Source: Acidobacteriota bacterium (GTDB lineage: Bacteria > Acidobacteriota > Thermoanaerobaculia > Multivoradales > Multivoraceae). From it: a stretch of DNA of 64,000 bases. The notes beneath the pieces were generated by a model. The model saw only the letters and a list, made by a program, of their open reading frames with translations. It searched no databases and was not told the DNA's origin. The DNA lies in assembly GCA_026707325.1 (NCBI GenBank), contig JAPOXA010000165.1:22481-86480 (forward strand), read 5' to 3'. A program made the position numbers and the translations under genes. Shown here piece after piece: positions 3,058 through 53,887 of the stretch. How positions within the stretch are numbered: position 1 is the first letter of the stretch; every line of letters begins with the position of its first letter.

Positions 3058-3468
3058 CTAGAGCTGGTCGATGTAAACATTCGCCCCTTCCAGTGCAGGG
3101 TTGTCGGCCCACGTCTTGGAGGCGTGGATAGAGGCAACCTGAGAGTCCTTGCTGTAGGCGATGCCGTCGAGAGCATCCATGATCGTCTTGAGCAGGTTAT
3201 CGAGGTCAGGACGCTGCGACACGTACTTGCCGGCAAAGGACCGGCGCTTGACCTTCGGCCAGGACTTCGCCATCAGCAGCGTGAAGTGGACCGTAATGCT
3301 GACCGGGCCTTCTAGCGGCTCGATGGAAGCGGCTTTGGCGTAGCCCTTGACGAGGGCCTCGTAGTCCCTGGTCTTGTTGGGCGTGTAGGTGATTCCGCGG
3401 CGAGTGACGCGGGGACGGCCTTTGCCGACCGGCCTTCCTGGGACAGTGAACTCGTACATCTTCGACAA
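3058..3468 (-). CDS. rusA: RusA-family Holliday junction resolvase
   Basis: MYEFTVPGRPVGKGRPRVT...RPDLDNLLKTIMDALDGIAY, typical RusA motifs; ATG at 3459 is the likelier start. Confidence 0.9.
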   Translation of the reverse strand: MSKMYEFTVPGRPVGKGRPRVTRRGITYTPNKTRDYEALVKGYAKAASIEPLEGPVSITVHFTLLMAKSWPKVKRRSFAGKYVSQRPDLDNLLKTIMDALDGIAYSKDSQVASIHASKTWADNPALEGANVYIDQL

Positions 3469-3521
3469 CTATAGCCAACTCGCCTATCACTTCAGCCATG
3501 ACTTACCCCCCTTTGAGGCTC

Positions 3522-3530
3522 AGTGTATCA
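3522..3530 (-). promoter_or_regulatory. extended -10 promoter (TGATACACT) upstream of rusA block
   Basis: TGn + TACACT read on minus strand, about 55 nt upstream of rusA; followed by GGGGGG Shine-Dalgarno. Confidence 0.35.
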
Positions 3531-3618
3531 CAGTTGTACACCGGCCAACTTGGCCGGTCGCTTGCGGCTGATACATTGACGGAACCAAGCAGTCCCTATC
3601 CTGACTGCCGGTAATCAA

Positions 3619-3649
3619 GAAGCCGCTGGCCTGACCAGCCAGCGGCTTC
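3619..3649 (-). terminator. intrinsic terminator-like hairpin
   Basis: 12-bp perfect stem GAAGCCGCTGGC/GCCAGCGGCTTC, 7-nt loop; followed on minus strand by UUGAUU, on plus by UUCC. Confidence 0.5.
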
Positions 3650-3659
3650 TTCCCGTAGC

Positions 3660-4122
3660 GCTGGCTTCGCCCATCCCTGTCCAGATTGGGGACAGGGTGA
3701 CCACCGCTTACCGCCGTGTACTACCGGCAGGGTGGCCGAACCGCGCGCGCCTCCGTGGGTCCGCCCGTCAGGGCGGTCCGGACAGTCCGGGATGCAGGGC
3801 TGGGCAGAGCCCGGGTTTCAAGGTGGAGGGACCACTCGGGCCTTGAAAGTCCCTGTCGCAATGCCTGGGGGTGTACCCCAGACCCAGCCCGAGTGCGGCT
3901 GCGCGCCGGCCGATTGACGCAGTGAGGCGAGCACCCCTTCGGGATTGTTCCGACGGTGTAGGCGGGGACTGTTCCCACCGCACGTCGGCTCCCAGGCTTT
4001 GGCTCTTCGCTTGTTCTCGACAAGACCAGCCGAGCGTACCACGGGCCATCGAGGGTGTCCACGCCTCGATGGCCCGTGGGAAGGCGGTGCTCGTCTTGTC
4101 GAGGGAAGAGCTAAAGCCAGTG
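3660..4122. ncRNA. candidate large structured RNA or DNA structural element (identity unknown)
   Basis: No credible ORF; nested helices 3995-4008/4105-4118 (13 of 14 pairs), 4016-4026/4093-4103 and 4039-4054/4064-4079 (both perfect), plus at least 6 more local hairpins. Confidence 0.3.
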
Positions 4123-4128
4123 GTCAGG

Positions 4129-4137
4129 ACTGTACCA
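4129..4137 (-). promoter_or_regulatory. extended -10 promoter (TGGTACAGT) pointing into the structured region
   Basis: TGn + TACAGT on minus strand at the right edge of the ORF-free region. Confidence 0.3.
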
Positions 4138-4314
4138 CACTTTGCGTACAACTGACGGTGGCGCTGCTGGCTCGGTTTCTGCACATCGTACAGATCGGAA
4201 GATCAAGCCGCTCGTCGACTTCAACGTACTTGCGCCAGTTCAAGCCGCCAGTGGACCACATGCGACAGGCAGTATCTGGACCAGTCCAGACATGGGCCAC
4301 GCGACTCTTACCGC

Positions 4315-4323
4315 TGCTATGAT
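4315..4323 (+). promoter_or_regulatory. extended -10 promoter (TGCTATGAT), near-leaderless start of 4330..4716
   Basis: TGn + TATGAT ends 6 nt before the ATG at 4330. Confidence 0.35.
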
Positions 4324-4329
4324 CGAGAC

Positions 4330-4716
4330 ATGACCGACTCTGAGGTTTTGCACCATGCGGACGGCCGCACCAGCGTTCCCGAAGACCTCTACAACCACAT
4401 CTTCAACGAGGGCAAGTGCGGCGACTGGTTCTGGTCGTCAGAGAACCGAGACGGCAAGGTTCACCGGACCATCTGGATTCTCGTACCTGCGGTCGGCAAT
4501 CCGGCGACTGGCAAGCCGCTGGCCGATCGAGGACTCGAACTGGCGATCGTGTTCCCGATTCACGGACCGAACAACTGGGCCGAACCAGGCGACATCAACG
4601 GCTGGGACGGGAACGAGGAAGCACCAACGCTGGAGCCGTCGATCTGGGTCAGAGGCGAGACCGACAACCCAGGCTGGCATGGGTTCTTTCGGCACGGCAG
4701 ACTGGTCTCAGCATGA
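4330..4716 (+). CDS. DUF6527-like protein
   Basis: 128 aa; ...INGWDGNEEAPTLEPSIWV...GWHGFFRHGRL resembles the W-x-NG-x3-PT-x-PS / WHG-x-L-x-G signature (from memory). Confidence 0.45.
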   Translation: MTDSEVLHHADGRTSVPEDLYNHIFNEGKCGDWFWSSENRDGKVHRTIWILVPAVGNPATGKPLADRGLELAIVFPIHGPNNWAEPGDINGWDGNEEAPTLEPSIWVRGETDNPGWHGFFRHGRLVSA

Positions 4717-4835
4717 CAGTCTTGGCTGACCACCGCCCCGTTCGACGACGACGATTCCGTTCTCCGGGATCAGCTCGGACTTGATCGCGGCTCGGTTTCC
4801 GCGCAGCGTCAAGCCCGGAGGGCGGTCACTTGGAG

Positions 4836-10768: not shown

Positions 10769-11021
10769 TCAACTCCGGGAACAGGATCTCGATGCCGCAC
10801 ATGCAGCGGTCCGGCTCGATGTCGGCCGGACAGACCATCGTCGTAGTCGAGCAGACGCGGCATCCGCAGCGGGATACCTGCGGCAGCTTGCCGCACCGCC
10901 CGCAGGGCGGGCGAGAATCGGGGCCGGGCAATGCGAGTGCCCGGCCCCGGAACCGGCCGTCAAGCCGGCTGGACACCACCGAGTCTCGGAGAAAGGACTT
11001 CAAGATGGAGCCCAAAAACAT
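10722..11021 (-). CDS. Cys-rich small protein
   Basis: 99-aa ORF, CGRCG...CGCRVC...CMCG. Confidence 0.4.
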   Translation of the reverse strand: MFLGSILKSFLRDSVVSSRLDGRFRGRALALPGPDSRPPCGRCGKLPQVSRCGCRVCSTTTMVCPADIEPDRCMCGIEILFPELTEEDLECFDKLGLPI

Positions 11022-15128: not shown

Positions 15129-15180
15129 CGGGCCGGGTTGCGCGGGCCGGCCCGGTCCGGGCCGGCCCGCAGCTCCGGGC

Positions 15181-21809: not shown

Positions 21810-21815
21810 TTGCCC

Positions 21816-21824
21816 ACTATATCA
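21816..21824 (-). promoter_or_regulatory. extended -10 promoter (TGATATAGT), leaderless GTG start
   Basis: -10 ends 6 nt before the GTG at 21809. Confidence 0.45.
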
Positions 21825-21834
21825 AGCCAGAGTG

Positions 21835-21943
21835 CAGAATCTGAACCGTTCTCGGCGAAACGGTGTGGCCAAAAAGTCTCCTATGGGCCGAGCACCCCAA
21901 GTCGGGAATCTGCACCATTTCCGTCCTGGCGGTTCAGATTCCG
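21835..21943. promoter_or_regulatory. three operator-like GAATCTG(A/C)ACC sites
   Basis: 21835-21847 and 21904-21916 direct, 21930-21943 inverted; first overlaps the -35 region of the GIY-YIG promoter. Confidence 0.45.
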
Positions 21944-22364
21944 TCCATAGCCGTTGGCCTATGCAAGCGGCCAACTTGGCCGGTCGCTGCCCTCGGCGGC
22001 CAACTGGTACCGGACCTCGCTAGTGTGCGAACAGGAGAGAGCGCGCAGGTTGGCTCCCGCGCTTTCCCGTTCGTTCCGGGCCACTTTCCCTTGTCGCAGC
22101 AGGCGTTTTTTCTCGTTGGTCGTTTTGGGTTCGTTGTCGTGTCGTGGTCGTTGCGGGTATTGGGTCGGTATCGGGTTCAGGGGTTTTCGTCGTGTGGTTG
22201 GGTCTTTGTCCCGATCCCGATGGTGGTATGTGTCTGGTTCTTGGGGTGTGTCGAGGGGTGTTTCGCGCTTTCCCTGTAGGTATATGTGTACGGGACCGGA
22301 TCCGAAGGCGCTGGTCGGTGGTGCTTGCCTATGTTCTTGGCCGTTTGTGTGGCTTGGGCTCTTG

Positions 22365-22619
22365 CTAGTGCGAGTCGGTGTCGCAACGCCAGCACATGGG
22401 CCGGTCGTGGGTGATCCGGTAGATGCCGCACTTGGGGCAGTCCTTGGTCTTGGCCGCTTTCAGTGCGTCGGTCGCGGTCGGGTATGGGCCGTCTGTTTGT
22501 GCTGGGCCTGTGCGCCTGTACCAGCCGGCCGGGTATCCGTCTGAGGATCGCGGCAGCTTGAGCACGAGTCCGTTGCGCTTGGCTTCGGCGACTCGCTCGG
22601 CGAGTTCGTTGCGGGTCAT
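22365..22619 (-). CDS. small Zn-ribbon protein
   Basis: 84 aa, CPKCG...CWRC. Confidence 0.5.
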   Translation of the reverse strand: MTRNELAERVAEAKRNGLVLKLPRSSDGYPAGWYRRTGPAQTDGPYPTATDALKAAKTKDCPKCGIYRITHDRPMCWRCDTDSH

Positions 22620-33243: not shown

Positions 33244-33292
33244 CTCAGTTGTACACCACATCGGAGACTGTCTACCTCGCGGTATAAGCCCC
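33244..33292 (-). mobile_element. solo copy of the TnpB-element left end
   Basis: GGGGCTTATACCGCGAGGTAGACAGTCTCCGATGTGGTGTACAACTGA (minus strand) matches the first 49 nt of the three full elements. Confidence 0.7.
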
Positions 33293-42971: not shown

Positions 42972-44207
42972 ACCGAAAGATTGACGGCGGAAGCCGCCAG
43001 CCTCAACGGCATGTATTGACGGATCACCGAGGTGGCCAGCGCCAACGCCTCTCCCCGCCCAGTTGCCCCTGCTCCAGAGGCCAGTATGTTGCGAGCAGCG
43101 TTCAGGTCCGCGTGATCGCGGTACCCGCACTCGCAACGAAACACGGTTCGACGACGCTCACCGCGAGCGCCGCAACCAGCACAAGACACCGAAGTGCCGG
43201 ATGGGTTCACCGCAACCGTAGAGGCGGCCTTGTAGCCGATCTTGGCGAGCAGTCCACCCCAGCCTGGCTTGAGGTTCTCACGGTTCAGGCCATGCTTGCC
43301 GCGACCCTTGCGGGACATCGCCTTGACCTTCAGCGCCTCATGGCAGACGAGACCAGCGGTGTCCGCAAGGCAACGACTGACGTGATGCTGCCAGTTCTTT
43401 CGCACGTTCCGCAGCTTCCGCTCGGTCTTGGCCTTCCGGTAACGAGCCACGGCCCGACGACCGGAACCCTTCTTCCGACGAGACATCATCCGCTGATACC
43501 GCTTCTTCCGCGCTTCCAGACGATTCACGTCCGTGAACGGCATGATCTGGCCGGTAGAGCAGGCCACAGCGCGGCTCGCGTGGTTCAGGTCGATGCCGAT
43601 GGACAAGCCGTTGTCTTCCGGCTCCTCGTCCGGCACCGAGTAGCAGACCGTCGCGTAGTACCGCCCAAGCTCTCGTTTCACGACCACCTTCACCGGGTCG
43701 CCGTCAGGATACGGATTCGAGCCGACGATCTGGACCCATCCGAGCTTCGGTATCCACAGGCGGCCGGAGCGGATGCGGATGTCCTGCGGGATCGTGAACG
43801 TGTCGTTCCAACGCTTGAAACGAGGATGACCACCTTGACCCTTGAAGTAGCGAGACCACGCCTCCGACTGATACTTAAGCGAGTACCGGACCACACCGAA
43901 CGGCTGCTCAGACAACCACGGGTGCTCACGACGAAGACCAGGCATCCGCTTGCCGAGAGCGAAGAACGAGGTTGAAGGCTTCTCCACGCCGTACATCTCG
44001 TGCAGAAGCATGTCCTCTTCGTTCTCCGAAAGAACCTTGTTCCAGACGAAGCGGCACGCCTGCATCACACCATCGAGACGAGACGCCATGCCCCGGCTGC
44101 CTGGACGCAAGCGGTAAATCACCTGACGGTGCATTCCGTTCATTGTACTAGAGTTGACGTCAGTTGTACACCGCATCGGAGACGGTCTACCTTGCGGTAT
44201 AAGCCCC
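42963..44207 (-). mobile_element. TnpB-only IS element, copy 1 (1245 bp)
   Basis: Ends GGGGCTTATACCG(C/A)AAGGT(A/T)GAC inverted; internal promoter TGTACA-17-TACAAT at 44142-44170. Confidence 0.8.
42968..44143 (-). CDS. tnpB: TnpB RNA-guided endonuclease, RuvC residues intact
   Basis: SIGIDLN, VCHEALKVKAM, CAGCG...CECG, HADLNAARNI; start MNGMHRQ. Confidence 0.88.
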   Translation of the reverse strand: MNGMHRQVIYRLRPGSRGMASRLDGVMQACRFVWNKVLSENEEDMLLHEMYGVEKPSTSFFALGKRMPGLRREHPWLSEQPFGVVRYSLKYQSEAWSRYFKGQGGHPRFKRWNDTFTIPQDIRIRSGRLWIPKLGWVQIVGSNPYPDGDPVKVVVKRELGRYYATVCYSVPDEEPEDNGLSIGIDLNHASRAVACSTGQIMPFTDVNRLEARKKRYQRMMSRRKKGSGRRAVARYRKAKTERKLRNVRKNWQHHVSRCLADTAGLVCHEALKVKAMSRKGRGKHGLNRENLKPGWGGLLAKIGYKAASTVAVNPSGTSVSCAGCGARGERRRTVFRCECGYRDHADLNAARNILASGAGATGRGEALALATSVIRQYMPLRLAASAVNLSV

Positions 44208-52642: not shown

Positions 52643-53887
52643 GGGGCTTATACCGAAAGGTTGACAGCAGCAGCTGCCAGCCTCAACGGCACGTATTGAC
52701 GGATCACCGAGGTGGCCAGCGCCAACGCCTCTCCCCGCCCAGTTGCCCCTGCTCCAGAGGCCAGTATGTTGCGAGCAGCGTTCAGGTCCGCGTGATCGCG
52801 GTACCCGCACTCGCAACGAAACACGGTTCGACGACGCTCACCGCGAGCGCCGCAACTAGAACAAGACACCGAAGTGCCGGACGGGTTTACCGCAGCCTTC
52901 GAGGCAGCCTTGTAGCCGATCTTGTCGAGAAGACCCGACCATCCCGGCTTGAGGTTCTCGCGGTTCAGACCATGCTTGCCGCGACCCTTGCGGGACATCG
53001 CCTTGACCTTCAGAGCCTCGTGACACACGAGACCAGCGGTGTCCGCGAGGCAACGGCTGACGTGGTGCTGCCAGTTCTTCCTCGTGTTCCTCAGCTTCCG
53101 CTCGGTCTTGGCCTTCCGGTGACGAGCCACGGCGCGGCGACCGGAACCCTTCTTCCGTCTCGACATCATCCGCTGATACCGCTTTTTCCGCGCTTCCAGG
53201 CGATCCACTTCTGGGAACGGCATGATCTCGCCAGTGGAACAGGCCACGGCGCGGGCAGCATGATTCAGGTCGATGCCGATGGACAAGCCGTTGTCTTCCG
53301 GCGCCTCATCCGGCACCGAGTAACAGACTGTCGCGTAGTACCGGCCGAGCTCCCGCTTCACGACCACCTTCACGGGCTCGCCGTCAGGATACGGATTCGA
53401 GCCGACGAGTCGAACCCAACCGAGCTTCGGTATCCATAGACGACTGGAGCGGATACGGATGCCTTGGGGAATCGTGAACGTGTCGTTCCAACGCTTGAAA
53501 CGAGGACGACCACCCTGACCCTTGAAAAAGCGAGACCACGCCTCCGACTGATACTTCAGTGTGTAGCGAACCACGGCACATGGCTGCTCTACCAACCACT
53601 CGTGATTGCGACGAAGAGAGGCTACACGCTTGCCCATCGTGAAAAACGAGGTGGATGGCTTCTCCACGCCGTACATCTCGTGCAACAACATGTCCTCTTC
53701 GTTCTCCGAAAGAACCTTGTTCCAGACGAAGCGGCACGCCTGCATCACACCATCGAGACGAGACGCCATGCCCCGGCTGCCTGGACGCAAGCGGTAAATA
53801 ACCTGACGGTGCATTCCGTTCATTGTACCAGAGTTGACGTCAGTTGTACACCGCATCGGAGACGGTCTACCTTGCGATATAAGCCCC
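52643..53887 (-). mobile_element. TnpB-only IS element, copy 2 (1245 bp)
   Basis: Same termini and length as copy 1; 19 nt after the stop of 53907..54179. Confidence 0.8.
52648..53823 (-). CDS. tnpB: TnpB RNA-guided endonuclease
   Basis: By eye roughly 90 percent identical to copy 1; D/E/D and Zn-finger motifs intact. Confidence 0.88.
   Translation of the reverse strand: MNGMHRQVIYRLRPGSRGMASRLDGVMQACRFVWNKVLSENEEDMLLHEMYGVEKPSTSFFTMGKRVASLRRNHEWLVEQPCAVVRYTLKYQSEAWSRFFKGQGGRPRFKRWNDTFTIPQGIRIRSSRLWIPKLGWVRLVGSNPYPDGEPVKVVVKRELGRYYATVCYSVPDEAPEDNGLSIGIDLNHAARAVACSTGEIMPFPEVDRLEARKKRYQRMMSRRKKGSGRRAVARHRKAKTERKLRNTRKNWQHHVSRCLADTAGLVCHEALKVKAMSRKGRGKHGLNRENLKPGWSGLLDKIGYKAASKAAVNPSGTSVSCSSCGARGERRRTVFRCECGYRDHADLNAARNILASGAGATGRGEALALATSVIRQYVPLRLAAAAVNLSV

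What the first reader, a model, noticed from the sequence alone, without database searches (positions are those of the whole stretch)
3619..4137. About 500 nt without ORFs but with nested, almost perfect helices: candidate large structured RNA or DNA structural element
The region lies between rusA and the + strand gene at 4330 and has no believable ORF. It contains a three-tier rod of helices: 3995-4008 pairs with 4105-4118 (13 of 14), 4016-4026 with 4093-4103 (11 of 11), and 4039-4054 with 4064-4079 (16 of 16). At least six more local hairpins occur (3675-3697, 3762-3777, about 3813-3853, about 3864-3880, about 3951-3989, and a TTCG-loop hairpin near 3935). An extended -10 (TGGTACAGT, 4129-4137) points leftward into the region. 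A strong hairpin with a U-rich tail on the minus strand (3619-3649) closes it. Almost all pairs are Watson-Crick with no G-U. That pattern could equally fit a DNA-level element such as an origin, a packaging site or a cruciform.
Basis: partly seen in the sequence, partly recalled or inferred. Interest (0 to 1): 0.6.

Follow-up and report, generated by a model that had tools for sequence, protein, structure and literature searches.

The report
Phage intergenic spacer with long palindrome
The 0.7-kb gene-free gap next to rusA in this uncultured 107-kb phage holds a strong two-way terminator hairpin, a unique 124-base palindrome and two short conserved hairpin motifs, but my tests do not show it to be one large folded RNA.

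Summary
The exceptional folding comes from two elements only. One is a 124-nt imperfect palindrome (3995-4118, z about -9.7 on either strand). The other is a perfect 14-bp hairpin (3617-3651, z about -5). The 336 nt between them fold no better than shuffled sequence (z -1.0 and -1.8).

No Rfam family, tRNA or tmRNA matches. No protein relative was found.

Conservation is limited to two short islands. Island A (3763-3838) recurs in a Ca. Multivorans chromosome and probably in one IMG/VR contig. Island B (hairpin 3951-3989) recurs upstream of a homologue of the neighbouring DUF6527-like gene in another phage contig, with two compensatory pairs. That contig lacks the palindrome at the matching spot.

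My best reading (0.45) is a composite transcription-unit boundary: back-to-back promoters on a shared palindromic operator, a bidirectional terminator, small regulatory hairpins and a lineage-specific palindromic insertion. A discrete minus-strand RNA of about 0.5 kb (0.22) and a DNA-level site such as an origin (0.15) remain open.

The parts
3522..3577 (.). Back-to-back promoter-like pair on a shared 19-bp palindrome (ACCGGCCAACTTGGCCGGT, 3540-3558). The - strand site is TTGGCC (3548-3543), 15 nt, TGATACACT (3530-3522), and faces rusA. The + strand site is TTGGCC (3550-3555), 16 nt, TGATACATT (3569-3577), and faces the gap.
Evidence: Read from the sequence. TGNTACANT matches come, the inverted repeats I17 and I24. 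Promoter function is inferred; the strict sigma-70 scan finds none.
3617..3651 (.). Perfect 14-bp GC-rich hairpin (AAGAAGCCGCTGGC, 7 nt, GCCAGCGGCTTCTT) with an A-rich 5' flank and a U-rich 3' flank on both strands. I read it as a bidirectional intrinsic terminator. The loop is CTGACCA.
   Evidence: I6.: -27.9 kcal/mol, z -5.43 (+) and -29.8 kcal/mol, z -5.08 (-). It is one of only four perfect hairpins with a stem of at least 11 bp in 64 kb. Terminator function is inferred, and the simple scan does not call it.
3655..3990 (.). GC-rich (68%) non-coding middle section. Its overall folding is not above chance. It carries islands A and B.
   Evidence: z -0.98 and -1.76; no codon periodicity; G+C content.
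3762..3838 (+). Island A: a hairpin at 3762-3777, then the motif CCGGGATGCAGG-N4-GGCAGAGCCCGG (3787-3814) and about 25 nt beyond it.
   Evidence: It is 72% and 70% identical over 77 nt to two copies in the Ca. Multivorans sp. chromosome OZ253534. None of 200 shuffles reaches that score. It matches 26 of 28 in IMG/VR contig L054. A covariance model finds nothing else in 401 genomes of the phylum.
3924..3989 (.). Island B: GAGGCGAGCAC followed by a 14-bp interrupted hairpin (3951-3989).
   Evidence: It is 72% identical over 67 nt to L127:4712-4778, which lies in a 936-nt gene-free gap upstream of a homologue of the neighbouring gene. None of 200 shuffles reaches that score. The hairpin is kept with two pairs changed on both sides, A-U to C-G and G-C to C-G. 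Two 1-nt gaps in the alignment rule out coding.
3995..4118 (.). The three-tier rod: a 124-nt imperfect palindrome of about 45 bp in three near-perfect tiers, with a 9-nt non-palindromic centre at 4055-4063.
   Evidence: I2, I4, I5.: -88.0 kcal/mol, z -9.55 (+) and -82.6 kcal/mol, z -9.84 (-). No other copy exists in the 5.1-Mb assembly, in the phage records or in IMG/VR by pattern. It is absent at the matching place of L127. Three Logan contigs end inside it.
4121..4137 (-). TGGTCAG box (4121-4127), complementary to the loop of the 3617-3651 hairpin, followed by the candidate - strand extended -10 TGGTACAGT (4137-4129). This overlaps the third copy of GGWACARTCC. The other copies lie at 3942-3951 and 3966-3975.
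   Evidence: three copies, all here; 0.38 expected in the whole 64 kb. TGGTCAG follows island B in L127 too, at the same offset once the rod is removed. Promoter function is inferred.
4146..4157 (+). GTACAACTGACG box. The same 12-mer sits in the left-end promoter region of the phage's TnpB elements. An inverted copy, GTACAACTG, lies at 3531-3539 inside the rusA promoter.
   Evidence: five copies in 64 kb, 0.15 expected.
4158..4329 (+). Upstream region of the DUF6527-like gene (4330-4716, + strand). It has no Shine-Dalgarno sequence. A -10-like TATGAT (4318-4323) lies 6 nt before the ATG, which suggests a leaderless or near-leaderless mRNA. Two 20-nt direct repeats lie at 4200-4219 and 4237-4256.
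   Evidence: Sequence and (D3). L127 has TAGAAT 7 nt before its ATG. Folding here is at chance. Promoter function is inferred.

Best explanation
The gap is a composite boundary between transcription units, not one large folded molecule. The host is a circular phage genome of about 107 kb in which nearly every gene is read on the minus strand.

Reading leftwards along the minus strand:
- Transcripts leaving the replication module (primase, SSB, a 369-aa gene) run antisense through the one oppositely oriented gene, the DUF6527-like gene at 4330-4716.
- They then cross the gap and are stopped by the perfect 14-bp hairpin at 3651-3617.
- The rusA operon restarts about 90 nt further on, from its own promoter. 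That promoter sits back to back with a plus-strand promoter on a shared 19-bp palindromic operator.
- Because the hairpin has an A-rich and a U-rich flank, it should also stop plus-strand transcripts from that second promoter after about 70 nt.

Inside the gap are two short hairpin motifs, islands A and B, which recur in unrelated phage-type DNA. I take them to be small binding sites for a protein or an RNA.

The 124-nt palindrome is a lineage-specific insertion next to island B. Once transcribed, on either strand, it forms a rod of about 45 bp. Such a rod would be a natural RNase III substrate or a stabilising end structure.

Shown: the anatomy, the statistics, the conservation pattern, and the absence of the rod in the one contig that shares island B.
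Inferred: all promoter, terminator and processing functions.
For: - Folding above chance is confined to the rod and the hairpin. The 336 nt between them are at chance.
- Two of the four perfect long hairpins in 64 kb lie here.
- The contig is circular, with GC skew negative throughout. That fits the gene calls, which are almost all on the minus strand.
- The divergent TGATACACT and TGATACATT elements and the TTGGCC hexamers lie symmetrically on the 3540-3558 palindrome.
- No Rfam family, tRNA or tmRNA matches.
- Conservation is limited to islands A and B, with two compensatory pairs in the island B hairpin.
- The rod is missing in L127 between island B and the shared TGGTCAG, and it is unique everywhere I searched.
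- The homologous gaps elsewhere are not unusually structured.
Against:
- The terminator's U tail is weak (UUCUU), and the simple scan does not call it.
- A gap of about 700 nt is long for a mere boundary in a tightly packed phage genome.
- Two islands conserved across otherwise unrelated contigs imply a function this reading does not name.
- The extended -10 sits 9-11 nt before the rod, and a 10-mer is repeated three times only here. Both fit a dedicated RNA gene or a protein-bound DNA site better than passive spacer.
- The insertion claim for the rod rests on a single comparison sequence.
Confidence: 0.45

Rival explanations
1. A discrete non-coding RNA of about 505 nt on the minus strand. 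Transcription starts about 7 nt after the extended -10 TGGTACAGT (4137-4129), near 4122. The RNA opens with the 124-nt rod as a protective 5' hairpin, carries islands B and A, and ends with the 3697-3675 hairpin and the terminator at 3651-3617. It is transcribed divergently from the DUF6527-like gene and may act with or on that gene.
For: - The promoter-like element, the rod and the terminator are in the right order and spacing.
- The whole-stretch z is slightly stronger on the minus strand, -9.08 against -7.64.
- Fewer G-U pairs are needed on the minus strand.
- In L127 a -10-like TATGCT lies at nearly the same offset from the shared CTGACCA box, and the RNA there would begin with the island B hairpin.
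- One U-G to G-U swap in that hairpin pairs only on the minus strand.
- Linkage to a DUF6527-like gene is seen in two otherwise unrelated contigs.
Against: - The middle 336 nt fold at chance (z -1.76), and so does the L127 gap (z -0.14).
- There is no -35 element.
- Nine of ten other DUF6527-like homologue loci have no such gap.
- There is no Rfam match.
- Only two sequences are available for any covariation test.
Confidence: 0.22
2. A DNA-level element: an origin of replication or another protein-bound site in the replication module. The long palindrome would extrude as a cruciform or fold in single-stranded DNA, and the three GGWACARTCC copies would be protein-binding repeats.
For: - The gap lies between the primase and SSB genes and rusA. 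The L127 gap lies after helicase and YqaJ-type exonuclease genes.
- The helices are almost purely Watson-Crick and equally stable on both strands.
- The 10-mer GGWACARTCC occurs three times, all here.
- Three independent Logan assemblies break inside the rod.
Against: - There is no AT-rich unwinding region. The gap is the most GC-rich part of the neighbourhood.
- Three 10-mers at spacings of 24 and 161 nt are a poor iteron array.
- GC skew shows no switch here.
- The rod's centre (9 nt) and its two internal loops are not palindromic, which works against cruciform extrusion and rules out a protelomerase-type site.
- The rod is absent in L127.
- One Logan contig starts at 4014 and carries the authentic left arm, so the junction exists intact in that sample.
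Confidence: 0.15
3. Plus-strand regulatory RNA. The promoter TTGGCC-16-TGATACATT (3550-3577) makes either a small RNA of about 70 nt ending at the 3617-3651 hairpin, or, on read-through, a 750-nt structured leader of the DUF6527-like gene. The hairpin would then act as an attenuator.
For: - This is the best promoter-like site in the region: a -35, a 16-nt spacer and an extended -10.
- It shares its operator with the rusA promoter.
- The rod is 5.4 kcal/mol more stable on the plus strand, thanks to a G-U pair.
- Wobble pairs extend the island A stem on the plus strand only, in the window and in the Multivorans copies.
- The hairpin loop CUGACCA is complementary to UGGUCAG at 4121-4127 on the same strand.
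Against: - The gene has its own -10-like element 6 nt before the ATG, in L127 as well.
- A 14-bp perfect hairpin 35 nt after the start would stop most transcripts.
- Folding of 3655-3990 on the plus strand is at chance.
- TGGTCAG is a generally over-represented 7-mer in this phage: 19 copies against 8.4 expected.
Confidence: 0.1
4. Functionless remains: eroded sequence left by gene loss or recombination at a module junction, plus a selfish palindromic (MITE-like) insertion. Only the terminator and the promoters would be functional.
For: - The middle section folds at chance.
- The rod is an indel relative to L127.
- This phage is demonstrably colonised by mobile DNA (TnpB elements, solo ends, promoter cassettes; and the earlier notes).
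- In L046 a homologue of the + strand gene sits in a long + strand operon that converges on an SSB block. The single gene here could therefore be what is left of such an operon.
Against: - Islands A and B are kept in unrelated contigs well above the shuffle level, with compensatory changes.
- No second copy of the rod exists anywhere, and I saw no target-site duplication. MITEs are normally multi-copy.
- No trace of codon periodicity remains.
Confidence: 0.08

Closest known systems
Bidirectional intrinsic (Rho-independent) terminators between bacterial and phage transcription units
   Same: A perfect GC-rich stem of 9 bp, extended to 14 bp by an A-rich 5' flank that pairs with a U-rich 3' flank, so the same structure forms on both strands. 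It lies just ahead of the next promoter, between converging directions of transcription.
   Different: The U tract is short and interrupted (UUCUU followed by GAUUA or CCCGU). The consensus scan did not call it, and no termination was measured.
RNase III processing hairpins of phage polycistronic RNAs (phage T7 R sites; lambda sib). From my own knowledge, not tested here.
   Same: A long, irregular double-stranded hairpin with internal loops, lying in an intergenic stretch of a long phage transcript. About 45 bp in three tiers of 14-16 bp exceeds the roughly two helical turns that RNase III needs.
   Different: The T7 sites are about 50-60 nt and recur at several gene junctions. This rod is 124 nt and single-copy. 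No cleavage data exist, and I found no homologous site in any other phage.
Palindromic miniature insertion elements of bacteria (ERIC, Correia, RUP-type MITEs)
   Same: Size (about 125 bp), imperfect-palindrome architecture, intergenic location, and presence or absence between related loci.
   Different: It is single-copy in the 5.1-Mb assembly and absent from every collection I searched. I saw no target-site duplication, and its ends bear no relation to the TnpB or IS1595-type elements of this phage.
Large ornate phage-associated RNAs GOLLD (RF01998) and ROOL (RF03087)
   Same: A non-coding stretch of about 0.5 kb with many helices in a phage genome.
   Different: There is no match to either model even at E = 10. 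The stretch is not next to tRNA genes. Outside one palindrome and one terminator the folding is at chance. Conservation covers only about 140 nt in two islands.
Promoter-early stem-loop (PeSL-like) cassettes already described in this same phage
   Same: Short promoter-plus-hairpin modules at gene boundaries of the same genome, which shows that this phage shuffles small regulatory cassettes.
   Different: Those cassettes use TTGACC-N17-CATACT promoters and a fixed transcribed box, and occur about 20 times. Nothing in 3520-4330 matches them.

Membership tests
Any curated RNA family (Rfam 15, 4227 models, including GOLLD, ROOL, HEARO, tmRNA, RNase P, SRP and 6S) | Covariance-model score at or above the family's gathering threshold | tested here: not met
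   permissive filters, E up to 10, both strands. The best is Betaproteobacteria-1 at 24.9 bits against 49.4. All others are at most 20.7 bits against thresholds of 44-100.
tRNA / tmRNA | tRNA-like acceptor and T arm, and for tmRNA a tag reading frame | tested here: not met
   ARAGORN finds none in the window, L054 or L127. The host's own tmRNA is found elsewhere in the assembly.
Large structured ncRNA (generic: OLE/GOLLD/ROOL class) | Folding stability above composition-matched controls along the whole molecule | tested here: not met
   3655-3990 gives z -0.98 and -1.76. The signal comes from 3995-4118 and 3617-3651 only.
Large structured ncRNA (generic) | Conserved secondary structure with covariation across homologues | tested here: inconclusive
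   Only one hairpin (3951-3989) could be compared, with one other sequence. Two compensatory pairs were seen and none was broken. No homologue of the full stretch exists in any collection searched.
Large structured ncRNA (generic) | A discrete transcript | not testable with these tools
Bidirectional intrinsic terminator | GC-rich hairpin with a 5' A tract and a 3' U tract, located at the end of a transcription unit | tested here: inconclusive
   The stem and its location fit. The U tract has only 4 of the first 5 residues as U, and the consensus scan gives no call.
MITE / palindromic insertion element | Multiple dispersed copies and a target-site duplication | tested here: not met
   No second copy was found. 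The flanks CTCCCA and AGTGGT share no duplication. Presence/absence against L127 is met.
Iteron-type replication origin | An array of phased direct repeats next to an AT-rich unwinding element | tested here: not met
   There are only three 10-mers, at spacings of 24 and 161 nt. G+C is 63-68% across the gap, above that of the flanks.
Protelomerase (telRL-type) or other cruciform target | A perfect dyad through the centre of the palindrome | tested here: not met
   The central 9 nt, GTGTCCACG (4055-4063), are not self-complementary, and two internal loops break the dyad.
TnpB omega-RNA / remnant of the TnpB element | Sequence similarity to the right-end guide scaffold or the inverted terminal repeats of the phage's TnpB elements | tested here: not met
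   Only the 12-mer GTACAACTGACG of the left-end promoter region is shared. The self-search of the assembly finds no other similarity.
Protein-coding gene or pseudogene | Codon periodicity, or a translated homologue | tested here: not met
   The island B alignment needs two 1-nt gaps.

The most novel reading that the evidence does not exclude
The gap encodes an undescribed minus-strand phage RNA of about 0.5 kb. It would start at about 4122 behind the extended -10 TGGTACAGT and open with a rod of about 45 bp. It would carry two short hairpin motifs (islands A and B) that are exchanged among unrelated Acidobacteriota phages and prophage remnants, and end at the 3651-3617 terminator. It would be transcribed divergently from, and functionally tied to, the DUF6527-like gene, whose homologues sit among anti-defence genes (Acb2/Tad1-like, Tad2-like) in other phages.
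Probability: 0.2. Interest if true: 0.55.

Novelty: new member of a known kind. Interest (0 to 1): 0.3.

Why it matters
As it stands this is a cautionary result. A very low folding energy for a 500-nt GC-rich stretch (z -8 to -9) came entirely from one palindrome and one terminator, so "hairpin-dense" gaps in GC-rich phages should be tested piece by piece.

Two things are worth keeping.
- Two short hairpin motifs are shared between otherwise unrelated phage-type sequences of an almost unstudied host group (Acidobacteriota, Ca. Multivorans). One of them travels with a DUF6527-like gene.
- There is a neat back-to-back promoter pair on a palindromic operator that recurs three times in the phage and probably marks a regulatory switch ahead of rusA.

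If transcript data later show a discrete RNA, the locus would become a candidate for a new phage non-coding RNA.

Tried and rejected
- **Known RNA families.** Nothing in the window, L002, L054 or L127.
- **Resemblances recalled from memory.** Island A recalled the RNase P P4 region and the 3' strand of E. coli 4.5S RNA. GGATTCGACGGG in L054 and L127 recalled the 5' end of tmRNA. I dropped all three: the Rfam models and ARAGORN give nothing, and the host's own RNase P and tmRNA show only 8-12-nt chance-level matches.
- **Relatives of the phage.** None were found: blastn against 50,697 phage records, 61 related genomes, and IMG/VR through four flanking proteins. RusA homologues are only about 40% identical and not syntenic.
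- **Identical copies.** The ENA and Logan contigs carry no variation.
- **Island A pattern scans.** The strict form gave one viral hit and the Multivorans genome, plus five chance hits in coding sequence, and none in metagenomes. All 60 metagenome hits of the relaxed form looked like chance coding matches.
- **Island B pattern.** Five chance coding hits.
- **Rod pattern.** One unrelated terminator.
- **Covariance model of island A.** No hit in 401 Acidobacteriota genomes.
- **attP reading for island A.** Rejected. The host assembly and 41 of 42 genomes of the genus lack the sequence, and no conserved host gene holds it.
- **Coding or pseudogene reading.** Rejected.
- **GC-skew search for an origin.** No switch anywhere on the circular contig.
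- **k-mer search for binding sites shared with the rest of the phage.** Nothing beyond the GTACAACTG box.
Full report
**Setting.** The window lies on contig C200 of the assembly, which is 106,915 bp long. The contig has a 66-bp direct repeat at its two ends, so it is a circular or circularly permuted phage genome. Its GC skew is negative along the whole length, and almost all called genes are on the minus strand. Earlier notes of this scan, and the title of a related genome (L060), link the phage to Acidobacteriota of the genus Ca. Multivorans.

To the right of the finding lie replication genes on the minus strand: a Toprim/zinc-ribbon primase, DUF4326, SSB and a 369-aa gene. To the left lies rusA (3459-3058, Pfam E 7e-33), followed by small genes. 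The one gene on the plus strand nearby (4330-4716) is a borderline DUF6527 match, 23.5 bits against a cut-off of 23.6.

**Where does the signal come from?** I split the stretch to find out.
- The rod 3990-4122 alone gives z -9.55 (+) and -9.84 (-).
- The hairpin 3610-3660 gives z -5.43 (+) and -5.08 (-).
- The 336 nt between them give z -0.98 (+) and -1.76 (-). 18 and 6 of 100 shuffles fold at least as well.

In the whole 64-kb window only four perfect hairpins have a stem of at least 11 bp and a loop of 3-9 nt. Two of them are these (shuffles give 0-1). The picture of a 500-nt molecule made of nine helices therefore does not hold. There are two exceptional elements and a GC-rich middle whose hairpins are mostly what 68% G+C gives by chance. 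Individually framed hairpins reach z -2 to -4 at best, and two are at chance.

**Known families.** Rfam 15 with permissive filters gives nothing near a threshold on either strand. ARAGORN finds no tRNA or tmRNA.

**Relatives.**
- The phage has no close relative in the phage records, in 61 related genomes, or in IMG/VR as judged by four flanking proteins.
- Other assemblies of the same phage are 100% identical over the region.
- Three Logan contigs end inside the rod, at 4054, 4014 and 4071. I cannot explain this without reads. The contig that starts at 4014 carries the authentic left arm, so the junction exists intact.

**Island A (3763-3838).** The one non-trivial DNA hit was a 41-nt match in a Ca. 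Multivorans chromosome. It extends to 77 nt at 72% identity, and none of 200 shuffles reaches that score. That genome has two copies, 94% alike. They lie in a 1.7-kb tandem duplication next to tRNA-Gln, in non-coding DNA among small genes with no Pfam match.

The shared part is a GC hairpin of different sequence, followed by CCGGGATGCAGG-N4/5-GGCAGAGCCCGG. A scan for that motif found one more case, matching 26 of 28, in a gene-free gap of about 0.9 kb in a 61-kb IMG/VR contig. It also gave five chance hits inside genes among 185,579 genomes, and none in the metagenome collection. All 60 hits of a relaxed pattern were chance. A covariance model of the island finds nothing else in 401 genomes of the phylum. 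Island A is real but rare. Its stem is extended by wobble pairs on the plus strand only, which is weak evidence for strand.

**Island B (3924-3989).** Of eleven contigs that carry homologues of the plus-strand gene (52-59% identity), only one (L127) has a large gene-free gap upstream: 936 nt, with no codon periodicity. Within it, L127:4712-4778 aligns with 3924-3988 at 72% over 67 nt. None of 200 shuffles reaches that score.

The hairpin 3951-3989 is preserved, with two pairs changed on both sides (A-U to C-G and G-C to C-G) and none broken. Each strand has one wobble feature in its favour: a conserved U-G on the plus strand, and a U-G to G-U swap on the minus strand. The strand therefore stays open. 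The alignment needs two 1-nt gaps, so this is not coding.

Right after the hairpin both sequences have TGGTCAG. In L127 it lies about 10 nt away. In the window it lies 7 nt, then the 124-nt rod, then 2 nt away. The rod is thus an insertion here, or a deletion there. Neither the L127 gap (z -0.14) nor the IMG/VR gap (z -1.74) is unusually structured.

**The rod.** It is unique in every search:
- there is no second copy in the 5.1-Mb assembly;
- there is none in the phage records;
- the pattern for its top tier finds only an unrelated terminator in IMG/VR.

Its centre and two internal loops are not palindromic. I saw no target-site duplication. The single imperfect position of the basal tier is G-T. 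It pairs as G-U on the plus strand (-88.0 against -82.6 kcal/mol), but any single transition in a palindrome would do the same.

**The edges.**
It contains two TTGGCC hexamers facing outwards, each followed by an extended -10. After 15 nt comes TGATACACT, facing rusA. After 16 nt comes TGATACATT, facing the gap. This looks like a back-to-back promoter pair under one operator. These are not the TTGACC-N17-CATACT early promoters that occur about 20 times in this phage.
- *Right edge.* TGGTACAGT (4137-4129) points leftwards and ends 9-11 nt before the rod. It overlaps the third copy of GGWACARTCC, a 10-mer found three times in 64 kb, all between 3942 and 4136. I derived that pattern from these copies, so only its absence elsewhere counts as information.
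- *Shared box.* GTACAACTGACG (4146-4157) is shared with the left-end promoter region of the phage's TnpB elements.
- *The plus-strand gene.* It has no Shine-Dalgarno sequence and has TATGAT 6 nt before its ATG. L127 has TAGAAT 7 nt before its ATG. That suggests the gene has its own promoter and a leaderless message.

**Reading.** I think the most likely account (0.45) is a composite boundary.
- Minus-strand transcripts from the replication module end at the 3651-3617 hairpin.
- The rusA operon restarts under operator control.
- The same hairpin blocks the divergent plus-strand promoter.
- Islands A and B are small regulatory hairpins.
- The rod is a lineage-specific palindromic insertion. As RNA it would be a substrate of RNase III or a stabiliser.

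All of these functions are inferred.

The rivals are:
- a discrete minus-strand RNA of about 505 nt, from about 4122 to 3617 (0.22);
- a DNA-level site such as an origin (0.15);
- a plus-strand small RNA or leader (0.10);
- functionless remains plus a selfish palindrome (0.08).

**Verdict.** The locus is ordinary in kind: a terminator, promoters and a palindrome at a module junction. It has two small conserved motifs and one bold reading still open. Interest 0.3.

Noticed in passing
window 3459-3499: A strong ribosome site (AAAGGGGGGTAAGTC) serves an ATG at 3499 that is out of frame with rusA, whose MYEFTVPG start is at 3459 with a TAG just upstream in its own frame. Either a short upstream ORF is translationally coupled to rusA, or the true start or frame differs from the gene call.
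   Followed up: no
window 3531-3539, 4146-4154, 33246-33254, 44161-44169, 53841-53849: GTACAACTG occurs five times, against 0.15 expected. Three copies lie in TnpB-element left ends, where TGTACA-N17-TACAAT looks like the tnpB promoter. The other two flank this gap in inverted orientation. It may be a shared promoter or regulator box.
   Followed up: partly
window 4242-4253: AAGCCGCCAGTG on the plus strand is perfectly complementary to the last tag codons and stop of the host tmRNA (CACUGGCGGCUU of the tag ANDELALAA*; tmRNA gene at C50:7314-7660). The match is 12 nt with E about 0.03 in that small comparison, so it may well be chance.
   Followed up: partly
window, whole: The 7-mer TGGTCAG/CTGACCA occurs 19 times, against 8.4 expected; none of 100 shuffles reaches 19. 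Copies sit in the loop of the 3617-3651 hairpin, right after the rod (4121-4127), and 10 nt after the stop of the DUF6527-like gene (4726-4732).
   Followed up: no
L053 (Ca. Multivorans sp. OZ253534, 976,900-979,700): A tandem duplication of about 1.7 kb next to tRNA-Gln carries a 167/169-aa membrane-anchored protein and, in the one copy I read, a 182-aa ORF that looked like a P-loop protein by eye (no Pfam hit). It also carries the 220-nt non-coding element that holds island A. The second copy lies upstream of an Nramp-family transporter gene.
   Followed up: partly
L042, L043, L044 (Logan contigs of ERR5003470, ERR5002191, ERR5005007): Three independent assemblies of the same phage all break inside the 124-nt palindrome, at window 4054, 4014 and 4071. 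This may be a coverage loss at a strong hairpin or real DNA heterogeneity.
   Followed up: no
L046 3651-4366; L130 8120-8380: Homologues of the DUF6527-like gene sit beside an Acb2/Tad1-hairpin-family gene in one contig, and in the same operon as a Tad2-like gene in another. That hints that this small protein belongs to phage anti-defence gene sets.
   Followed up: no
window 21810-22365: The second large gene-free gap of the phage holds another copy of the GGCCAACTTGGCCGG palindrome and a strongly G/T-rich stretch of lower G+C (about 22090-22370). By composition it looks more origin-like than the gap studied here.
   Followed up: no
window 10919-10949 and 15142-15170: These are the only other perfect hairpins in the window with a stem of at least 11 bp (12 and 13 bp). 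They are likely further terminators at operon ends.
   Followed up: no
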